Numbered from the stretch's first letter, positions 1 through 4,775 are shown. The stretch is 4,775 nt of DNA from a virus (IMGVR_UViG_3300015188_000046); one strand, 5' to 3'. Numbers and translations: made by a program. The notes: generated by a model from the sequence alone, not told the origin.

Positions 1-31
1 ACTGGAGTTCAGACGTGTGCTCTTCCGATCT
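1..31. other. Illumina TruSeq-type adapter sequence (technical artefact, not biological)
   Basis: Positions 1-31 read ACTGGAGTTCAGACGTGTGCTCTTCCGATCT, the 3' part of the TruSeq indexed-adapter / read-2 primer site. Identified from memory of the adapter sequence. Confidence 0.9.
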
Positions 32-1538: not shown

Positions 1539-1810
1539 GCATTCGTATTGAAATTGGCGAACGTTATGTCGTTACCAGTGACAGCTTTCAGTTTATTCTC
1601 CACGAGAAAAAGAGAGCGGAAAGCGGTAAAAACGCCGGTCAGGAATGGCTGGCGGTGGTTGGTTATTACCCGAAATTAAGCCAGCTCGTTTCCGGCCTGA
1701 TGCATCACGATATTCTGACCGGAAGCGCAAAGTCTTTTGCTGATTTAAACGCACAGGTTGAGCAACTCAGCAGGCGTTGTTCAGAGGCTTTTGGCTCATA
1801 TGGCCGTTAA
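1535..1810 (+). CDS. Hypothetical protein (91 aa), directly upstream of and overlapping the replication initiator gene (P2 orf83 position)
   Basis: ATG 1535 with GGAG (1525-1528) six nt upstream; stop TAA 1808-1810. Overlaps the ATG-1800 start of the next gene by 11 nt. Confidence 0.75.
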   Translation: MSIRIEIGERYVVTSDSFQFILHEKKRAESGKNAGQEWLAVVGYYPKLSQLVSGLMHHDILTGSAKSFADLNAQVEQLSRRCSEAFGSYGR

Positions 1811-4088
1811 AGCCTCCGGGCGTTTTGTCCCTCCGTCAGCATTTGCCGCAGGCACCGGTAAGACGTTTACCGGTGCTTATGCATGGAACGCGCCACGCGA
1901 GGCTGTCGGGCGCGAAAGACCCCTTACACGTGACGAGATGCGTCAGGTGCAAGGTGTTTTATCCACGATTAACCGCCTGCCTTACTTTTTGCGCTCGCTG
2001 TTTACTTCACGTTATGACTACATCCGGCGCAATAAAAGCCCGGTGCACGGGTTTTATTTCCTCACATCCACTTTTCAGCGTCGTTTATGGCCGCGCATTG
2101 AGCGTGTGAATCAGCGCCATGAAATGAACACCGACGCGTCGTTGCTGTTTCTGGCAGAGCGTGACCACTATGCGCGCCTGCCGGGAATGAATGACAAGGA
2201 GCTGAAAAAGTTTGCTGCCCGTATCTCATCGCAGCTTTTCATGATGTATGAGGAACTCTGCGATGCCTGGGTTGATGCACATGGCGAAAAAGAATCGCTG
2301 TTTACGGATGAGGCGCAGGCTCACCTCTATGGTCATGTTGCTGGCGCTGCACGTGCTTTCAATATTTCCCCGCTCTACTGGAAAAAATACCGTAAAGGAC
2401 AGATGACCACGAGGCAGGCATATTCTGCCATTGCCCGTCTGTTTAACGATGAGTGGTGGACTCATCAGCTCAAAGGCCAGCGTATGCGCTGGCATGAGGC
2501 GTTACTGATTGCTGTCGGGGAGGTGAATAAAGACCGTTCTCCTTATGCCAGTAAACATGCCATTCGTGATGTACGTGCACGCCGCCAGGCAAATCTGGAA
2601 TTTCTTAAATCGTGTGACCTTGAAAACAGGGAAACCGGCGAGCGCATCGACCTTATCAGTAAGGTGATGGGCAGTATTTCTAATCCTGAAATTCGCCGGA
2701 TGGAGCTGATGAACACCATTGCCGGCATTGAGCGTTACGCCGCCGCAGAGGGTGATGTGGGGATGTTTATCACGCTGACCGCGCCGTCAAAGTATCACCC
2801 GACACGTCAAGTCGGAAAAGGCGAAAGTAAAACCGTTCAGCTTAATCACGGCTGGAACGATGAGGCATTTAATCCAAAGGATGCGCAGCGTTATCTCTGC
2901 CGCATCTGGAGCCTGATGCGCACGGCATTCAAGGATAATGATTTACAGGTCTACGGTTTGCGAGTCGTCGAGCCACACCACGACGGAACGCCGCACTGGC
3001 ATATGATGCTTTTTTGTAATCCACGCCAGCGTAACCAGATTATCGAAATCATGCGTCGCTATGCGCTCAAAGAGGATGGTGACGAAAGAGGAGCCGCGCG
3101 AAACCGTTTTCAGGCAAAGCACCTTAACCGGGGCGGTGCTGCGGGATATATCGCGAAATACATCTCAAAAAACATCGATGGCTATGCACTGGATGGTCAG
3201 CTCGATAACGATACCGGCAGGCCGCTGAAAGACACTGCTGCGGCTGTTACCGCATGGGCGTCAACGTGGCGCATCCCGCAATTTAAAACGGTTGGCCTGC
3301 CGACAATGGGAGCTTACCGTGAGCTACGTAAATTGCCTCGCGGCGTCAGCATTGCTGATGAATTTGACGAACGCGTGGAGGCTGCACGCGCCGCCGCAGA
3401 CAGTGGCGATTTTGCGCTTTATATCAGCGCGCAGGGTGGGGCAAATGTCCCGCGCGATTGTCAGACTGTCAGGGTCGCCCGTAGCCCGTCGGATGACGTT
3501 AACGAGTACGAGGAAGAAGTCGAGAGAGTGGTCGGCATTTACGCGCCGCATCTCGGCGCGCGTCATATTCATATCACCAGAACGACGGACTGGCGCATTG
3601 TTCCGAAAGTTCCGGTCGTTGAGCCTTTGACTTTAAAAAGCGGCATCGCCGCGCCTCGGAGTCCTGTCAATAACTGTGGAAAGCCTGCCAGCAGTGATGC
3701 TTCGTTACCGGCTCCCACACCTTCTGAACACGCCGCAGCAGTGCTTAATCTGGTAGATGACGGTGTTATCGAATGGAATGACCCGGAGGTTGTGAGGGCG
3801 CTCAGGGGGGCATTAAAACACGGACTGAGAAGACCAAATCGCCAGCAAAGAAACGGAAGCCCGTTAAAACCACATGAAATAGCGCCATCGGCCAGACTGA
3901 CCCGGTCGGAACGAATGCAAATTACCCGTATCCGCGTTGACCTTGCTCAGAACGGTATCAGGCCTCAGCGATGGGAGATTGAGGCGCTGGCGCGTGGGGC
4001 AACCGTAAATTATGACGGGAAAAAATTCACGTATATGGTTACTAATGAGTGGTTCGGATTTCGAGATGAAGAGTCATTTTTCATGTAA
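1800..4088 (+). CDS. A: Rolling-circle replication initiator endonuclease, P2 gpA family (HUH endonuclease), ~762 aa
   Basis: Long ORF ending TAA 4086-4088. HUH motif P-H-W-H-M-M-L-F (HWH codons at 2994-3002). Paired active-site tyrosines in G-Y-I-A-K-Y-I-S-K (Tyr codons 3147-3149 and 3159-3161), the same Y-x-x-K-Y arrangement as phiX174 gpA. Start placed at the first ATG (1800); the ORF-track start at 1758 is a TTG without a convincing SD. The length matches P2 A (~761 aa) as I recall it. Confidence 0.9.
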   Translation: MAVKASGRFVPPSAFAAGTGKTFTGAYAWNAPREAVGRERPLTRDEMRQVQGVLSTINRLPYFLRSLFTSRYDYIRRNKSPVHGFYFLTSTFQRRLWPRIERVNQRHEMNTDASLLFLAERDHYARLPGMNDKELKKFAARISSQLFMMYEELCDAWVDAHGEKESLFTDEAQAHLYGHVAGAARAFNISPLYWKKYRKGQMTTRQAYSAIARLFNDEWWTHQLKGQRMRWHEALLIAVGEVNKDRSPYASKHAIRDVRARRQANLEFLKSCDLENRETGERIDLISKVMGSISNPEIRRMELMNTIAGIERYAAAEGDVGMFITLTAPSKYHPTRQVGKGESKTVQLNHGWNDEAFNPKDAQRYLCRIWSLMRTAFKDNDLQVYGLRVVEPHHDGTPHWHMMLFCNPRQRNQIIEIMRRYALKEDGDERGAARNRFQAKHLNRGGAAGYIAKYISKNIDGYALDGQLDNDTGRPLKDTAAAVTAWASTWRIPQFKTVGLPTMGAYRELRKLPRGVSIADEFDERVEAARAAADSGDFALYISAQGGANVPRDCQTVRVARSPSDDVNEYEEEVERVVGIYAPHLGARHIHITRTTDWRIVPKVPVVEPLTLKSGIAAPRSPVNNCGKPASSDASLPAPTPSEHAAAVLNLVDDGVIEWNDPEVVRALRGALKHGLRRPNRQQRNGSPLKPHEIAPSARLTRSERMQITRIRVDLAQNGIRPQRWEIEALARGATVNYDGKKFTYMVTNEWFGFRDEESFFM
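3651..3670 (+). other. Candidate replication origin / gpA nick region inside the A coding sequence (tentative)
   Basis: Sequence GCGCCTCGGAGTCCTGTCAA lies about 81% into the A gene. In P2 the origin is inside the 3' part of gene A, and I recall (unverified) a nick-site sequence of this kind. No hairpin or iteron structure is visible here to support it independently. Confidence 0.25.
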
Positions 4089-4101
4089 AACACTTTAAAA
4101 T

Positions 4102-4143
4102 TCAATGCAATGAAGGCATATCCATGTTGCATTGATATGCCTT
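4102..4143 (+). terminator. Two overlapping, mutually exclusive inverted repeats immediately after the gpA stop; possible operon terminator or regulatory structure
   Basis: IR-A: TCAATGCAA (4102-4110) pairs with TTGCATTGA (4127-4135). IR-B: AAGGCATAT (4113-4121) pairs with ATATGCCTT (4135-4143). They are followed by AT-rich sequence, with a T-run (TTGTTTT) about 15 nt downstream. The stems are AT-rich and the U-tract is not canonical. Confidence 0.3.
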
Positions 4144-4358
4144 TAACTTATTATATATTTGTTTTATATGAAAAAATATCATATACAGGGGGAGCAAATA
4201 CAACGGTTTACTTGTTATGATGCAAACATTGGTTAGTTAGTGAGATATATCGCCATCAATTGGGTATTTTTACCCGTGGAAAGTTAACGCTTTCTAACAC
4301 TTACCCCGCGCAACGCCCCTGCCAGCGACAGGAGTCACAGGATCAGGAGGTATGGCGT

Positions 4359-4652
4359 ATGGGTATTCGAACCCTTTGGGCGACCAAGGGTTCGTGGAGC
4401 AGGGGGCTAGTGCTGTTCAATCTCATCCTTATGAGGGCGAACCATAGTGTTGGAGCAGACATACCGTTTGCACACTATGGGCATAAGGAGCAAATCATGA
4501 AGAATGATAAATTAACCAACGAACAGCAGGCGCAGAACAAGTCAAACCTGAAAAAGTGGGCTGGTTACGCTTGGAAATTAATCAAATGGGGTATTAGACT
4601 GTTTGATTTAGTTACTCGAGCACTGGACTACTTCGAAGGGGGGGATGAGTAA
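4359..4652 (+). CDS. Small hypothetical protein: 97 aa from ATG 4359, or 51 aa from in-frame ATG 4497; first ORF after gpA (P2 orf91 position)
   Basis: ATG 4359 has AGGAGG (4345-4350) eight nt upstream. In-frame ATG 4497 has AAGGAG (4485-4490) six nt upstream. Stop TAA 4650-4652. The ORF-track start at 4260 is a TTG with no SD. The C-terminal part is Trp/Lys-rich and amphipathic (KKWAGYAWKLIKWGIRLFDLV). Confidence 0.45.
   Translation: MGIRTLWATKGSWSRGLVLFNLILMRANHSVGADIPFAHYGHKEQIMKNDKLTNEQQAQNKSNLKKWAGYAWKLIKWGIRLFDLVTRALDYFEGGDE
4368..4480 (+). promoter_or_regulatory. Two strong RNA stem-loops (possible structured leader or regulatory RNA element) overlapping the 5' part of the 4359-4652 ORF
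   Basis: SL1: CGAACCCTTTGG (4368-4379) pairs with CCAAGGGTTCG (4384-4394), giving 11 bp with one bulged T, closed by a GCGA (GNRA-type) tetraloop. SL2: perfect 9-bp inverted repeat CCATAGTGT (4442-4450) / ACACTATGG (4472-4480) around a 21-nt loop. SL2 ends 4 nt before the AAGGAG SD of the 4497 start. Confidence 0.3.
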
Positions 4653-4688
4653 TGCGTCCTCCCTAGTTTCAATAGCATGGAGTTGCCT

Positions 4689-4758
4689 ATGTTACATAAA
4701 GCCCTTCGTTTAATAAGGCAATACCATAAAGAATCAATAGTTGAGTTATCTTCATCTT
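4689..4758 (+). CDS. 5' fragment of an unknown gene that continues beyond the insert end (first ~23 codons only)
   Basis: ATG 4689 with GGAG (4679-4682) six nt upstream; an alternative in-frame ATG at 4677 has no SD. The frame stays open to the adapter junction (the apparent TAG at 4758-4760 is created by the adapter). The fragment is AT-rich, about 32% GC by eye. Confidence 0.3.
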
Positions 4759-4775
4759 AGATCGGAAGAGCGTCG
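4759..4775. other. Illumina adapter read-through (technical artefact)
   Basis: AGATCGGAAGAGCGTCG is the start of the TruSeq universal adapter read-through sequence. Confidence 0.9.

What the first reader, a model, noticed from the sequence alone, without database searches (positions are those of the whole stretch)
4497..4652. Small Trp/Lys-rich amphipathic peptide with its own near-consensus SD
From the internal ATG at 4497 the product is 51 aa: a polar N-terminal half followed by KKWAGYAWKLIKWGIRLFDLVTRALDYF, which is cationic, Trp-rich and amphipathic, then an acidic tail (EGGDE). Peptides of this composition are often membrane-active, as in small toxins, holin-like or exclusion peptides. 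Its position as the first gene after gpA at the start of the accessory locus makes it a candidate small effector or regulator. This is speculative.
Basis: inference. Interest (0 to 1): 0.45.

Follow-up and report, generated by a model that had tools for sequence, protein, structure and literature searches.

The report
Type VI retron small toxin gene
The 51-residue peptide is real, but it is already a known kind of gene: the small toxic effector of a Type VI retron anti-phage system carried by a P2-like prophage, encoded inside a structured RNA that hides its own ribosome-binding site.

Summary
ORF 4497-4652 encodes 51 aa, preceded by AAGGAG at 4485-4490. Its C-terminal half is strongly amphipathic, with no transmembrane segment.

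It is not P2 orf91. In E. coli genomes identical to this stretch, the next two genes are a Type VI retron HTH protein (PADLOC HTH_VI, 6.7e-31) and reverse transcriptase (RT_VI, 4.1e-105). The window stops 70 nt into the HTH gene, at an Illumina adapter. That RT, WP_000746343.1, sits in the "Large" Type VI lineage of a published tree, alongside Retron-Vpa2.

A profile of the peptide family matches the proven toxic small protein (SP) of Vpa2 over its full length (E 5.5e-6). All 32 loci holding a homolog have HTH and RT directly downstream.

The gene lies in a roughly 445-nt structured "hybrid RNA":
- a variable msd-like stem;
- a conserved hairpin;
- a long-range inverted repeat bracketing the coding sequence;
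- an invariant anti-SD/SD helix.

Covariation across 22 sequences supports the fold.

The likeliest mechanism, inferred from Vpa2, is that translation stays repressed until phage-induced msDNA opens the riboregulator. How the peptide kills is unknown, and membrane activity is unproven. Verdict: already known from 2025-26 preprints; low novelty.

The parts
4213..4221 (+). Putative extended -10 promoter element (TGnTATGAT). The predicted transcript start is near 4228, where conservation of the retron module begins.
   Evidence: The motif is conserved in 12 relatives, including those where a DinI-like gene rather than gpA lies upstream. The promoter function and the transcript start are inferred, not shown.
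4228..4672 (+). Predicted hybrid RNA (hyRNA) of the Type VI retron: a non-coding msr-msd-like part plus the SP coding sequence, about 445 nt. Both ends are approximate.
   Evidence: MFE of 4225-4700 is -166.2 kcal/mol, z -4.73, with 0 of 100 shuffles as stable. It has three arms joined at a central node, as described for the roughly 470-nt Vpa2 hyRNA. On 22 sequences, 92.5% of cells pair against about 40% when partners are slid. 33 pairs change on both sides, against 8-15 slid and 0 of 500 shuffles. Rfam has no family for it.
4302..4365 (+). Long stem-loop with a hypervariable tip; candidate reverse-transcription template (msd).
   Evidence: Relatives carry indels of 11-21 nt here that are not multiples of three, and the basal pairs covary (for example CG in 10, UA in 9 and UG in 3 sequences at one pair). 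[quoted passage not shown] The assignment here is an inference.
4368..4394 (+). Conserved 9-bp hairpin whose loop carries direct-repeat copy 1, GGGCGAC (4378-4384).
   Evidence: Nearly invariant in 22 sequences. The core 4360-4443 is 62/86 identical to the Vibrio parahaemolyticus Vpa2-like locus L035, which has GGACGAA in the equivalent loop.
4395..4406 (+). 5' arm of the long-range inverted repeat (UGGAGCAGGGGG); pairs with 4659-4671.
   Evidence: 12 pairs, 99.2% of cells paired, 9 pairs invariant and 3 varying on one side only. The same pairing appears in the Vibrio fold. It matches the a1/a2-like repeats described for Vpa2 and IR1-IR2 in the Sen3 lineage.
4411..4418 (+). 5' strand of the helix that closes the riboregulator arm; pairs with 4521-4528 (GAACAGCA, the GAA-CAG-CA of codons E9-Q10-Q11 of the SP).
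   Evidence: 8 pairs, invariant in 22 sequences. Vibrio has UGCUGAUC/GAUCAGCA, a compensatory change that turns E into D.
4426..4433 (+). Anti-SD (UCCUUAUG); pairs with 4482-4489 (CAUAAGGA), covering most of the SD.
   Evidence: Found as an 8-nt perfect inverted repeat (I14) and present in the MFE. Invariant in 22 sequences. The adjacent helix 4442-4450/4472-4480 has 5 of 9 pairs with changes on both sides.
4435..4441 (+). Direct-repeat copy 2 (GGGCGAA), in the internal loop next to the anti-SD; proposed docking site for the msDNA.
   Evidence: GGGCGA is conserved at 4378 in 22/22 and at 4435 in 21/22 sequences. Zhang et al. describe a conserved 7-nt repeat in an msd loop and in a riboregulator loop and propose msDNA hybridisation there.
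4485..4490 (+). Shine-Dalgarno AAGGAG of the SP gene.
   Evidence: Read from the sequence; conserved; predicted to be paired.
4497..4652 (+). SP gene: the 51-aa small toxic effector of the Type VI retron (RefSeq WP_001302990.1, annotated as hypothetical protein).
   Evidence: Profile against the Vpa2 SP: probability 85.7%, E 5.5e-6, full length. The start codon sits in a small hairpin, 4494-4498/4504-4508.
4659..4671 (+). 3' arm of the long-range inverted repeat (CUCCCUAGUUUCA).
4689..4758 (+). First 23 codons (MLHKALRLIRQYHKESIVELSSS) of the retron HTH gene, cut off by the end of the contig. Its SD, GGAG, is at 4679-4682.
   Evidence: The full gene in L001 matches PADLOC HTH_VI at 6.7e-31. 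R7 is present; R7D in the Vpa2 HTH was toxic.
4759..4775 (.). Illumina adapter sequence (AGATCGGAAGAGCGTCG); not biological.
   Evidence: The genome copies read on differently after 4758.

Best explanation
The ORF is the SP gene of a Type VI retron of the 'Large' lineage, the lineage that contains Retron-Vpa2. The retron sits in the accessory hotspot after gpA of a P2-like prophage of E. coli. The cassette is hyRNA(msr-msd + SP) - HTH - RT.

Proposed mechanism, inferred by homology to Vpa2:
1. A constitutive promoter near 4213-4221 makes a roughly 445-nt RNA.
2. This RNA is both the template for the reverse transcriptase and the mRNA of the toxin.
3. In uninfected cells the SD (4485-4490) is held by the anti-SD (4426-4433) and the AUG lies in a small hairpin, so little SP is made. 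The HTH protein restrains reverse transcription.
4. On infection, phage recombination or anti-RecBCD functions let msDNA accumulate.
5. The 5' part of the msDNA is complementary to the hairpin loop GGGCGAC (4378-4384). It pairs with the repeat GGGCGAA (4435-4441) beside the anti-SD and frees the SD.
6. SP, a single amphipathic helix, is translated and stops growth of the infected cell (abortive infection).

Shown here: the gene, its context, homology of SP, HTH, RT and the RNA core to Vpa2-type systems, and the conserved, covarying RNA fold.

Inferred: transcription start, msd boundaries, msDNA-dependent derepression, toxicity, and the cellular target.
For: Context. The stretch 4089-4758 is 100% identical to E. 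coli LWY24, where the order is gpA - 51-aa gene - HTH - RT. PADLOC scores are HTH_VI 6.7e-31 and RT_VI 4.1e-105, with the next-best RT model at 5.3e-45. RT accession WP_000746343.1 appears as 'Large_WP_000746343.1' in the published Type VI tree, and Vpa2 lies in the same lineage. All 32 loci with an SP homolog have HTH and RT directly downstream.

SP homology. The family profile matches the Vpa2 SP at E 5.5e-6 over 47 columns. The Vpa2 sequence I rebuilt from a published table is confirmed by a 95%-identical database protein.

RNA. The three-arm fold has a sequestered SD and AUG. Covariation is given. The ncRNA core is 72% identical to Vibrio Vpa2-like loci, although their HTH is only 47-51% and their RT 55-58% identical. 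The direct repeat lies at equivalent places in both.

Published experiments on Vpa2. SP alone is toxic and K15* abolishes the toxicity. Deleting the non-coding part of the hyRNA is toxic. msDNA is needed for SP translation and is sufficient when supplied in trans. An E. coli Type VI retron, Eco12, defends against lambda-vir.
Against: - Nothing was measured for this locus. Whether it is Retron-Eco12 could not be checked, because no sequence or accession for Eco12 is held.
- The anti-SD/SD helix and the two junction helices never vary, so they carry no covariation evidence of their own.
- A second Type VI retron, Sen3, works differently: SP is made constitutively and neutralised by HTH. That mode cannot be excluded here.
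- The direct repeat matches at only 6 of 7 positions in this lineage.
- The SP-to-Vpa2 match is moderate (85.7% probability) and rests on short, low-complexity helical peptides.
- The priming site for reverse transcription was not identified.
Confidence: 0.62

Rival explanations
1. The same Type VI retron SP, controlled as in Retron-Sen3. SP is made all the time and is held in check post-translationally by the HTH protein as antitoxin. Inhibition of host RecBCD by the phage releases it. The RNA structure would serve reverse transcription and complex assembly, not translational control.
For: This mechanism is published for Sen3. The strongly amphipathic C-terminal helix here (moment 0.74) resembles the Sen3-type amphipathic helix, which the authors propose mediates protein-protein contacts. 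They describe the Vpa2 helix as less amphipathic. The HTH gene follows immediately, with conserved spacing.
Against: - The RT falls in the 'Large' lineage with Vpa2, not in cl2075.
- The SP aligns with the Vpa2 SP and lacks the roughly 25-residue N-terminal extension of cl2075 SPs.
- The anti-SD and the riboregulator repeat are conserved all the way to Vibrio.
- SP and HTH identities are uncoupled between relatives: SP 88-90% with HTH 100%, and SP 96% with HTH 83%. That is unexpected for a tightly co-adapted toxin-antitoxin pair.
Confidence: 0.25
2. A free-standing membrane-active peptide of the prophage (holin-like, type I toxin or exclusion peptide), acting by pore formation or depolarisation. 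It could be independent of the retron, or this could be the killing mechanism of the SP itself.
For: The helix is cationic, Trp-rich and amphipathic. The hydrophobic C-terminal helix is required for Vpa2 SP toxicity, and its N-terminus appears to promote oligomerisation or colocalisation. The target is unknown, so membrane action remains possible as the killing step.
Against: - Independence from the retron is contradicted by the 32/32 linkage with HTH and RT and by the gene's embedding in the retron RNA.
- No hydrophobic stretch long enough to span a membrane is present (maximum KD 0.66 over 19 residues).
- There are no Pfam or PADLOC toxin or holin matches.
- The whole peptide has a net charge of only +2 and ends in an acidic tail.
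Confidence: 0.1
3. The ORF is not translated at all. The region would be only the 3' arm of a structured non-coding retron RNA, and the open frame would be a by-product.
For: The coding sequence is heavily base-paired and its helices covary (helices 18, 20 and 21). The most conserved peptide motifs (EQQA, EGGDE) coincide with RNA junction helices. Variable sites by codon position are 19/14/19, so third positions do not dominate.
Against: - dN/dS is below 1 in all 35 informative pairs.
- Length is held at 47-55 aa across distant relatives, with conserved SD, ATG and stop.
- The only indel is in frame.
- The upstream region, equally structured, does not keep one frame.
- In Vpa2 an early stop codon (K15*) abolishes toxicity.
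Confidence: 0.03

Closest known systems
Retron-Vpa2 (Vibrio parahaemolyticus) SP and hybrid RNA; Zhang et al., bioRxiv 10.1101/2025.10.22.683967
   Same: - SP-HTH-RT order.
- A 51-aa SP here against 55 aa there, collinear, with shared [ED]QQ near the N-terminus, a basic patch, a hydrophobic helix and a C-terminal F-[ED]-G-G-D.
- A three-arm RNA with sequestered SD and AUG and a long-range inverted repeat.
- A direct repeat in a hairpin loop and in the riboregulator loop.
- The same RT lineage.
   Different: - SP identity is only about 26%, HTH 47-51% and RT 55-58%.
- The helix here is more amphipathic and less aromatic.
- The repeat is GGGCGA(C/A) here instead of GGACGAA.
- The host is a P2-like prophage of Enterobacteriaceae.
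- Nothing has been tested experimentally for this locus.
Retron-Eco12 (E. coli Type VI retron in the same paper)
   Same: An E. coli Type VI retron described as phylogenetically related to Vpa2. It makes no detectable msDNA at baseline and defends against lambda-vir from its native promoter. It may be this very element or a close allele.
   Different: Identity could not be verified: neither the text nor the supplements held here give an accession or sequence.
Retron-Sen3 (Salmonella, SP cluster cl2075); Garcia-Rodriguez et al., bioRxiv 10.64898/2026.04.27.721009
   Same: A Type VI SP-HTH-RT cassette. The SP coding sequence is embedded in a structured transcript with IR1-IR2 flanking it and the RBS in a stem. 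SP is a helical toxin with a C-terminal amphipathic or hydrophobic helix.
   Different: A different RT subclade and SP cluster, and a 79-aa SP with an extra N-terminal region. SP is constitutive and neutralised post-translationally by HTH, and ssDNA is constitutive.
Type I toxin-antitoxin peptides with structured mRNAs (hok/sok, tisB/istR); from general knowledge
   Same: A short toxic helical peptide whose SD is occluded by long-range mRNA structure, so that translation needs an RNA rearrangement.
   Different: No antisense RNA antitoxin is evident. The proposed activator is reverse-transcribed ssDNA. There is no transmembrane segment. This is an analogy only, not homology.
Accessory or defence loci of P2-like phages between gpA and the portal gene (old, tin; retron Ec67 in phage phiR67); from general knowledge
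   Same: The same genomic slot: gpA upstream, portal gene downstream. The cargo is exchangeable between prophages whose gpA is only 38-44% identical.
   Different: The cargo here is a Type VI retron. The peptide has no homolog in P2 itself.

Membership tests
Type VI retron (Mestre et al. 2020 classification) | Reverse transcriptase of the Type VI clade | tested here: met
   PADLOC RT_VI at 4.1e-105 (349 bits), against 5.3e-45 for the next model. Accession WP_000746343.1 appears in the published Type VI tree as 'Large' lineage. The RT lies outside the window, in genome copies 100% identical over 4089-4758.
Type VI retron (Mestre et al. 2020 classification) | Cro/C1-type HTH protein just upstream of, or overlapping, the RT gene | tested here: met
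   PADLOC HTH_VI at 6.7e-31, with weak Pfam HTH_3/19/31 matches. The HTH and RT genes overlap by 23 nt in L001. The first 23 codons lie in the window at 4689-4758.
Type VI retron, SP-containing subtype | Small protein gene directly upstream, in SP-HTH-RT order | tested here: met
Type VI retron, Vpa2-type SP | Sequence homology to an experimentally proven SP toxin | tested here: met
   hhalign of the 20-sequence family against the Vpa2 SP: probability 85.7%, E 5.5e-6, 47 of 51 columns. Support is moderate, as the peptides are short.
Type VI retron hybrid RNA (hyRNA) | Structured transcript holding msr-msd and the SP coding sequence, with SD and AUG in stems and a long-range inverted repeat | tested here: met
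   Fold; covariation; the same fold in the Vibrio locus; core sequence 62/86 identical to Vibrio. The transcript itself has not been observed.
Type VI retron hybrid RNA (hyRNA) | Conserved 7-nt direct repeat in an msd loop and in the riboregulator loop | tested here: met
   GGGCGAC at 4378-4384 and GGGCGAA at 4435-4441 (6 of 7 identical), conserved in 22/22 and 21/22 sequences. Vibrio has GGACGAA at both places.
Type VI retron | SP toxicity, RT-dependent phage defence and msDNA production | not testable with these tools
   Experimental. Shown for Vpa2, Eco12 and Sen3 only.
Holins / transmembrane type I toxins | At least one hydrophobic membrane-spanning segment | tested here: not met
   The highest Kyte-Doolittle mean over 19 residues is 0.66, against a usual threshold of about 1.6. 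No Pfam match.
P2 orf91 | Homology to the gene that follows A in phage P2 | tested here: not met
   tblastn of the peptide against 50,697 phage records (E up to 0.01) hits only Peduovirus P22H1 and Klebsiella phages. This assumes P2 itself is in that collection, which I did not check separately.

The most novel reading that the evidence does not exclude
The most conserved parts of the peptide may be fixed largely by RNA pairing rather than by protein function. These are the N-terminal [ED]QQA and the C-terminal EGGDE plus stop codon. The first lies in the helix that closes the riboregulator arm. The second runs into the helix at the base of the coding-sequence arm and abuts the long-range repeat. 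If so, the SP gene is a true dual-function sequence, and only the amphipathic middle is free to evolve as a toxin.

Together with the uncoupled SP and HTH-RT identities between prophages, this would mean the hyRNA/SP module is swapped as a unit, and that control in this lineage is RNA-based rather than based on an HTH-SP protein pair.
Probability: 0.3. Interest if true: 0.4.

Novelty: already known. Interest (0 to 1): 0.22.

Why it matters
This stretch is annotated as a "hypothetical protein" in RefSeq, and gene callers give it inconsistent starts (51, 97 and 130 aa). It is in fact the toxic effector and riboregulator of an anti-phage retron. The element is carried by P2-like prophages in about 100 of 5,426 complete E. 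coli genomes, including O157:H7 strains.

Recognising it corrects the annotation. The upstream 'extension' is non-coding RNA, and the window is only the 5' end of the system. The result also gives an enterobacterial counterpart of Vpa2 in which the proposed msDNA-riboregulator pairing can be tested with defined point mutations.

It adds nothing categorically new beyond the 2025-26 preprints.

Tried and rejected
- Pfam on the 51-aa and 130-aa readings gave only chance-level hits (PccH 0.085, Adcy_cons_dom 0.11).
- PADLOC has no model for the SP.
- Rfam 15 at a permissive threshold over 4000-4775 gave only noise (best E 1.9) and no retron msr family.
- A PDB profile search with the SP family found nothing.
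- The 130-aa ORF (4260-4652) and the 97-aa PHROG 5826 reading were rejected as coding. Relatives shift frame through a 1-nt indel, and the variable stem has indels that are not multiples of three.
- The promoter found by the consensus scan (4132-4159) is not conserved in relatives.
- The direct repeat UGGAGCAG (4395/4451) was rejected as the riboregulator repeat, because its second copy is not conserved.
- I looked for a canonical branching G in a UAGC context after the 3' repeat arm (G4675). It is not conserved in the alignment, so the priming site stays unassigned.
- Searching viral contigs with the Vpa2 SP found nothing. The species-representative genome scan gave only 2 loci.
- Searching the papers for the RefSeq accessions and for Eco12 gave no sequence linking this locus to Retron-Eco12.
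- No fold search was run on the AlphaFold model, since a single helix would give meaningless matches.

Full report
**1. What the window is**

The window is the early-operon end of a P2-like (Peduovirus) prophage. It holds gene B, several small ORFs and the replication endonuclease gpA (1758-4088), followed by 687 bases that include the finding. Both ends of the window are Illumina adapter sequence (1-31 and 4759-4775). The biological sequence therefore stops at 4758.

**2. The observation**

The ATG at 4497 opens a 51-codon frame ending at TAA 4650-4652. AAGGAG lies at 4485-4490, 6 nt upstream of the ATG.

- Residues 19-34 carry a net charge of +5, and residues 35-51 a net charge of -4.
- The 18-residue hydrophobic moment peaks at 0.74 (residues 27-44). 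Only 5 of 5000 shuffles of that segment reach this value.
- No window of 19 residues is hydrophobic enough to span a membrane (maximum Kyte-Doolittle mean 0.66).
- AlphaFold2, run on a 20-sequence alignment, predicts one continuous helix over residues 3-48 (pLDDT 76.5).

**3. Is it a gene?**

Several lines say yes.

- PHROG 15287 is a 51-aa family that matches end to end (E 1.6e-38).
- Homologs of 47-55 aa exist in Klebsiella, Citrobacter, Enterobacter, Serratia, Kosakonia and more distant sources.
- Pairwise dN/dS among nine loci is 0.07-0.74.
- The only length change is an in-frame 9-nt deletion.
- SD, ATG and stop are conserved in 22 distinct sequences.

The same frame is open upstream, which is why ORF callers report 130 aa (from 4260) or 97 aa (PHROG 5826). 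That extension is not coding. A 1-nt indel about 20 codons before the ATG puts half of the relatives into another frame, so the 'protein' differs completely while the DNA stays nearly invariant. Further upstream there are indels of 11-21 nt.

**4. Context**

The stretch 4089-4758 is 100% identical to E. coli LWY24. It is at least 99% identical to 16 complete E. coli genomes, and 100 of 5,426 genomes hold a match.

In these genomes the 51-aa gene (WP_001302990.1, 'hypothetical protein') is followed by two genes:
- a 102-aa helix-turn-helix protein (WP_001310277.1);
- an overlapping 316-aa reverse transcriptase (WP_000746343.1).

Small ORFs and the phage portal gene come next. PADLOC assigns the two proteins to HTH_VI (6.7e-31) and RT_VI (4.1e-105; next-best RT model 5.3e-45).

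The window contains only the first 23 codons of the HTH gene.

In all 32 loci I collected with a homolog of the peptide, HTH and RT follow in the same order and spacing. The upstream gpA ranges from 38% to 100% identity, and in some relatives a DinI-like gene is interposed. The peptide has no counterpart in phage P2 itself, so it is not orf91.

**5. What is already published**

Two preprints describe exactly this architecture.

Zhang et al. (10.1101/2025.10.22.683967) show the following for Retron-Vpa2:
- The small protein (SP) upstream of HTH and RT is the toxic effector. SP alone arrests growth, K15* abolishes this and hydrophobic-core mutations reduce it.
- SP is encoded on a roughly 470-nt 'hybrid RNA' that also contains the msr-msd.
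- Its RBS and start codon are sequestered in stem-loops.
- msDNA, undetectable at baseline, accumulates on phage triggers (lambda Red) and is necessary for SP translation, and sufficient when supplied in trans.

They also show that an E. coli Type VI retron, Eco12, defends against lambda-vir.

Garcia-Rodriguez et al. (10.64898/2026.04.27.721009) describe Retron-Sen3. There SP is constitutive and HTH acts as a protein antitoxin.

Their supplementary tree contains 'Large_WP_000746343.1'. So the RT that follows this window in identical genomes is already catalogued as a Type VI retron RT of the 'Large' lineage, the lineage that holds Vpa2.

**6. Homology of the peptide to a proven SP**

I rebuilt the Vpa2 SP from Table S3 of the second paper. 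A 95%-identical 55-aa database protein from Vibrio confirms the reconstruction.

A profile of 20 family members aligns with it over 47 columns at probability 85.7% and E 5.5e-6. Shared features are [ED]QQ near the N-terminus, a basic patch, the hydrophobic helix with an R-[IL] core, and the C-terminal F-[ED]-G-G-D. The hydrophobic residues needed for Vpa2 toxicity (I39, F43, F45) lie in the same C-terminal helix that is hydrophobic here.

**7. The RNA**

Region 4225-4700 folds to -166.2 kcal/mol (z -4.73). The fold has three arms around a central node.

- *Arm 1* holds small 5' hairpins, a long stem (4302-4365) with a hypervariable, indel-rich tip, and a conserved 9-bp hairpin (4368-4394).
- *A long-range inverted repeat* (4395-4406 with 4659-4671) brackets everything up to and beyond the SP stop codon.
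- *Arm 2* is closed by 4411-4418/4521-4528. It contains the anti-SD/SD helix (4426-4433/4482-4489) stacked under a covarying helix (4442-4450/4472-4480), plus a small hairpin over the AUG.
- *Arm 3* is the rest of the coding sequence folded on itself.

This is the description of the Vpa2 hyRNA almost word for word.

On 22 distinct sequences, 92.5% of cells form pairs, against about 40% when the partners are slid by 1-3 columns. 33 pairs show changes on both sides, against 8-15 when slid and 18.8 +/- 2.5 in shuffles (0 of 500 shuffles reach 33). The structure was derived from one of the aligned sequences, which inflates the paired percentage. The count of compensatory pairs is less affected by this.

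The anti-SD helix and the two junction helices are invariant, so they are supported by conservation only.

Comparison with Vibrio parahaemolyticus Vpa2-like loci (L034, L035) helps here.
- The core 4360-4443 is 62/86 identical, although their HTH and RT proteins are only 47-58% identical.
- The Vibrio RNA folds the same way.
- The closing helix shows a compensatory change, UGCUGUUC/GAACAGCA to UGCUGAUC/GAUCAGCA, which at the same time converts E9 to D.

**8. The riboregulator repeat**

Zhang et al. point to a conserved 7-nt direct repeat. One copy sits in an msd loop and one in a loop of the riboregulator. They propose that the msDNA copy of the first hybridises to the second and frees the RBS.

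In this window GGGCGAC occupies the loop of hairpin 4368-4394. GGGCGAA occupies the internal loop directly 3' of the anti-SD (4435-4441). The shared GGGCGA is conserved in 22/22 and 21/22 sequences. The Vibrio loci have GGACGAA at both equivalent positions.

By analogy, 4302-4394 (93 nt) would be the template of the full msDNA, which is 86 nt in Vpa2. The hairpin 4368-4394 would correspond to the 5' stem-loop that is essential for derepression. These boundaries are inferred.

**9. Mechanism and rivals**

I commit to the Vpa2-type model: translational repression relieved by phage-induced msDNA, then growth arrest by the helical peptide. My confidence is about 0.6.

The Sen3-type model, with constitutive SP and an HTH antitoxin, gets about 0.25.
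- *For it:* the helix here is as amphipathic as the Sen3-type helix.
- *Against it:* the lineage, the SP type, the conserved riboregulator, and the uncoupled evolution of SP and HTH. For SP/HTH/RT the identities are 88-90%/100%/99% in L011 and L022, but 96%/83%/82% in L002.

A retron-independent membrane peptide is contradicted by the strict linkage and by the absence of a transmembrane segment. Membrane action as the final killing step remains open, because the target of SP is unknown.

A purely non-coding reading is very unlikely (section 3).

**10. Novelty and score**

The element, its class, its RNA and even its RT accession are in the 2025-26 literature. This is a known kind, and very probably a known member; it may be Retron-Eco12, but that could not be checked.

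Small additions from this work:
- mapping of the hyRNA parts in an enterobacterial P2-prophage retron;
- the coincidence of the peptide's most conserved motifs with RNA junction helices;
- the mosaic exchange of the hyRNA/SP module relative to HTH-RT.

Interest: 0.22.

Noticed in passing
window 1-31 and 4759-4775: Both ends of the window are Illumina TruSeq adapter sequence (ACTGGAGTTCAGACGTGTGCTCTTCCGATCT ... AGATCGGAAGAGCGTCG). The contig is an untrimmed assembly artefact at its ends, and the retron is cut off 70 nt into its HTH gene. ORF 17-226 at the left end starts inside the adapter.
   Followed up: partly
window 4521-4528 and 4635-4671: The most conserved peptide motifs sit on or next to RNA junction helices. 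E9-Q10-Q11-A12 lies on the helix that closes the riboregulator arm. The tail E47-G-G-D-E plus stop runs into the stem at the base of the coding-sequence arm and abuts the long-range repeat. Synonymous sites there are invariant or covary with their RNA partner, for example GCG to GCA with a compensating change in 3 sequences. This suggests a dual protein/RNA constraint.
   Followed up: partly
L002, L011, L022 compared with L001: The cassette is mosaic. L011 and L022 have HTH 100% and RT 99% identical to the window's system but SP only 88-90%. L002 (Peduovirus P22H1) has SP 96% but HTH 83% and RT 82%. This implies recombination between the hyRNA/SP module and the HTH-RT module.
   Followed up: no
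L003, L004, L007, L008 at about 2119-2575: In Klebsiella, Citrobacter and Enterobacter prophages a DinI-family gene (146 aa) lies between gpA and the retron. Their gpA is only 38-39% identical to the window's, yet HTH and RT are 85-93% identical. The retron cassette therefore moves between distantly related P2-like phages.
   Followed up: no
window 4168-4186 and 4213-4221: Upstream of the conserved RNA there is a conserved extended -10 (TGnTATGAT). About 30-45 nt further upstream lies an A-rich motif (ATGnAAAAAnnTnATA), kept even where the flanking gene differs. This could be the promoter plus an operator for the HTH protein.
   Followed up: partly
window 4102-4143: A near-perfect hairpin lies just after the gpA stop codon (TCAATGCAA...TTGCATTGA nested with AAGGCATATCCATG/CATTGATATGCCTT), in an AT-rich spacer. 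It has no T-run, so the terminator scan did not call it. It is possibly a gpA terminator or a boundary of the accessory slot.
   Followed up: no
L001 4251-5181; L009 4559-5929; L005 5046-6156; L010 4595-5395: The genes between the retron RT and the portal gene differ between prophages: small unknown ORFs in E. coli, a 456-aa FRG-domain protein in Kosakonia, a DUF8093 protein in Serratia, and a 266-aa protein in L010. This fits a variable defence or accessory hotspot. None of those tested matched PADLOC.
   Followed up: partly
window 4352-4447: A 31-aa ORF (MAYGYSNPLGDQGFVEQGASAVQSHPYEGEP) has a GGAGG just upstream in this sequence only. In relatives the SD is absent (CAGATGG). Some database 'proteins' (P0012, P0023) are read-through fusions of this frame with the SP frame. 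These are artefacts of translating the conserved ncRNA, not genes.
   Followed up: yes
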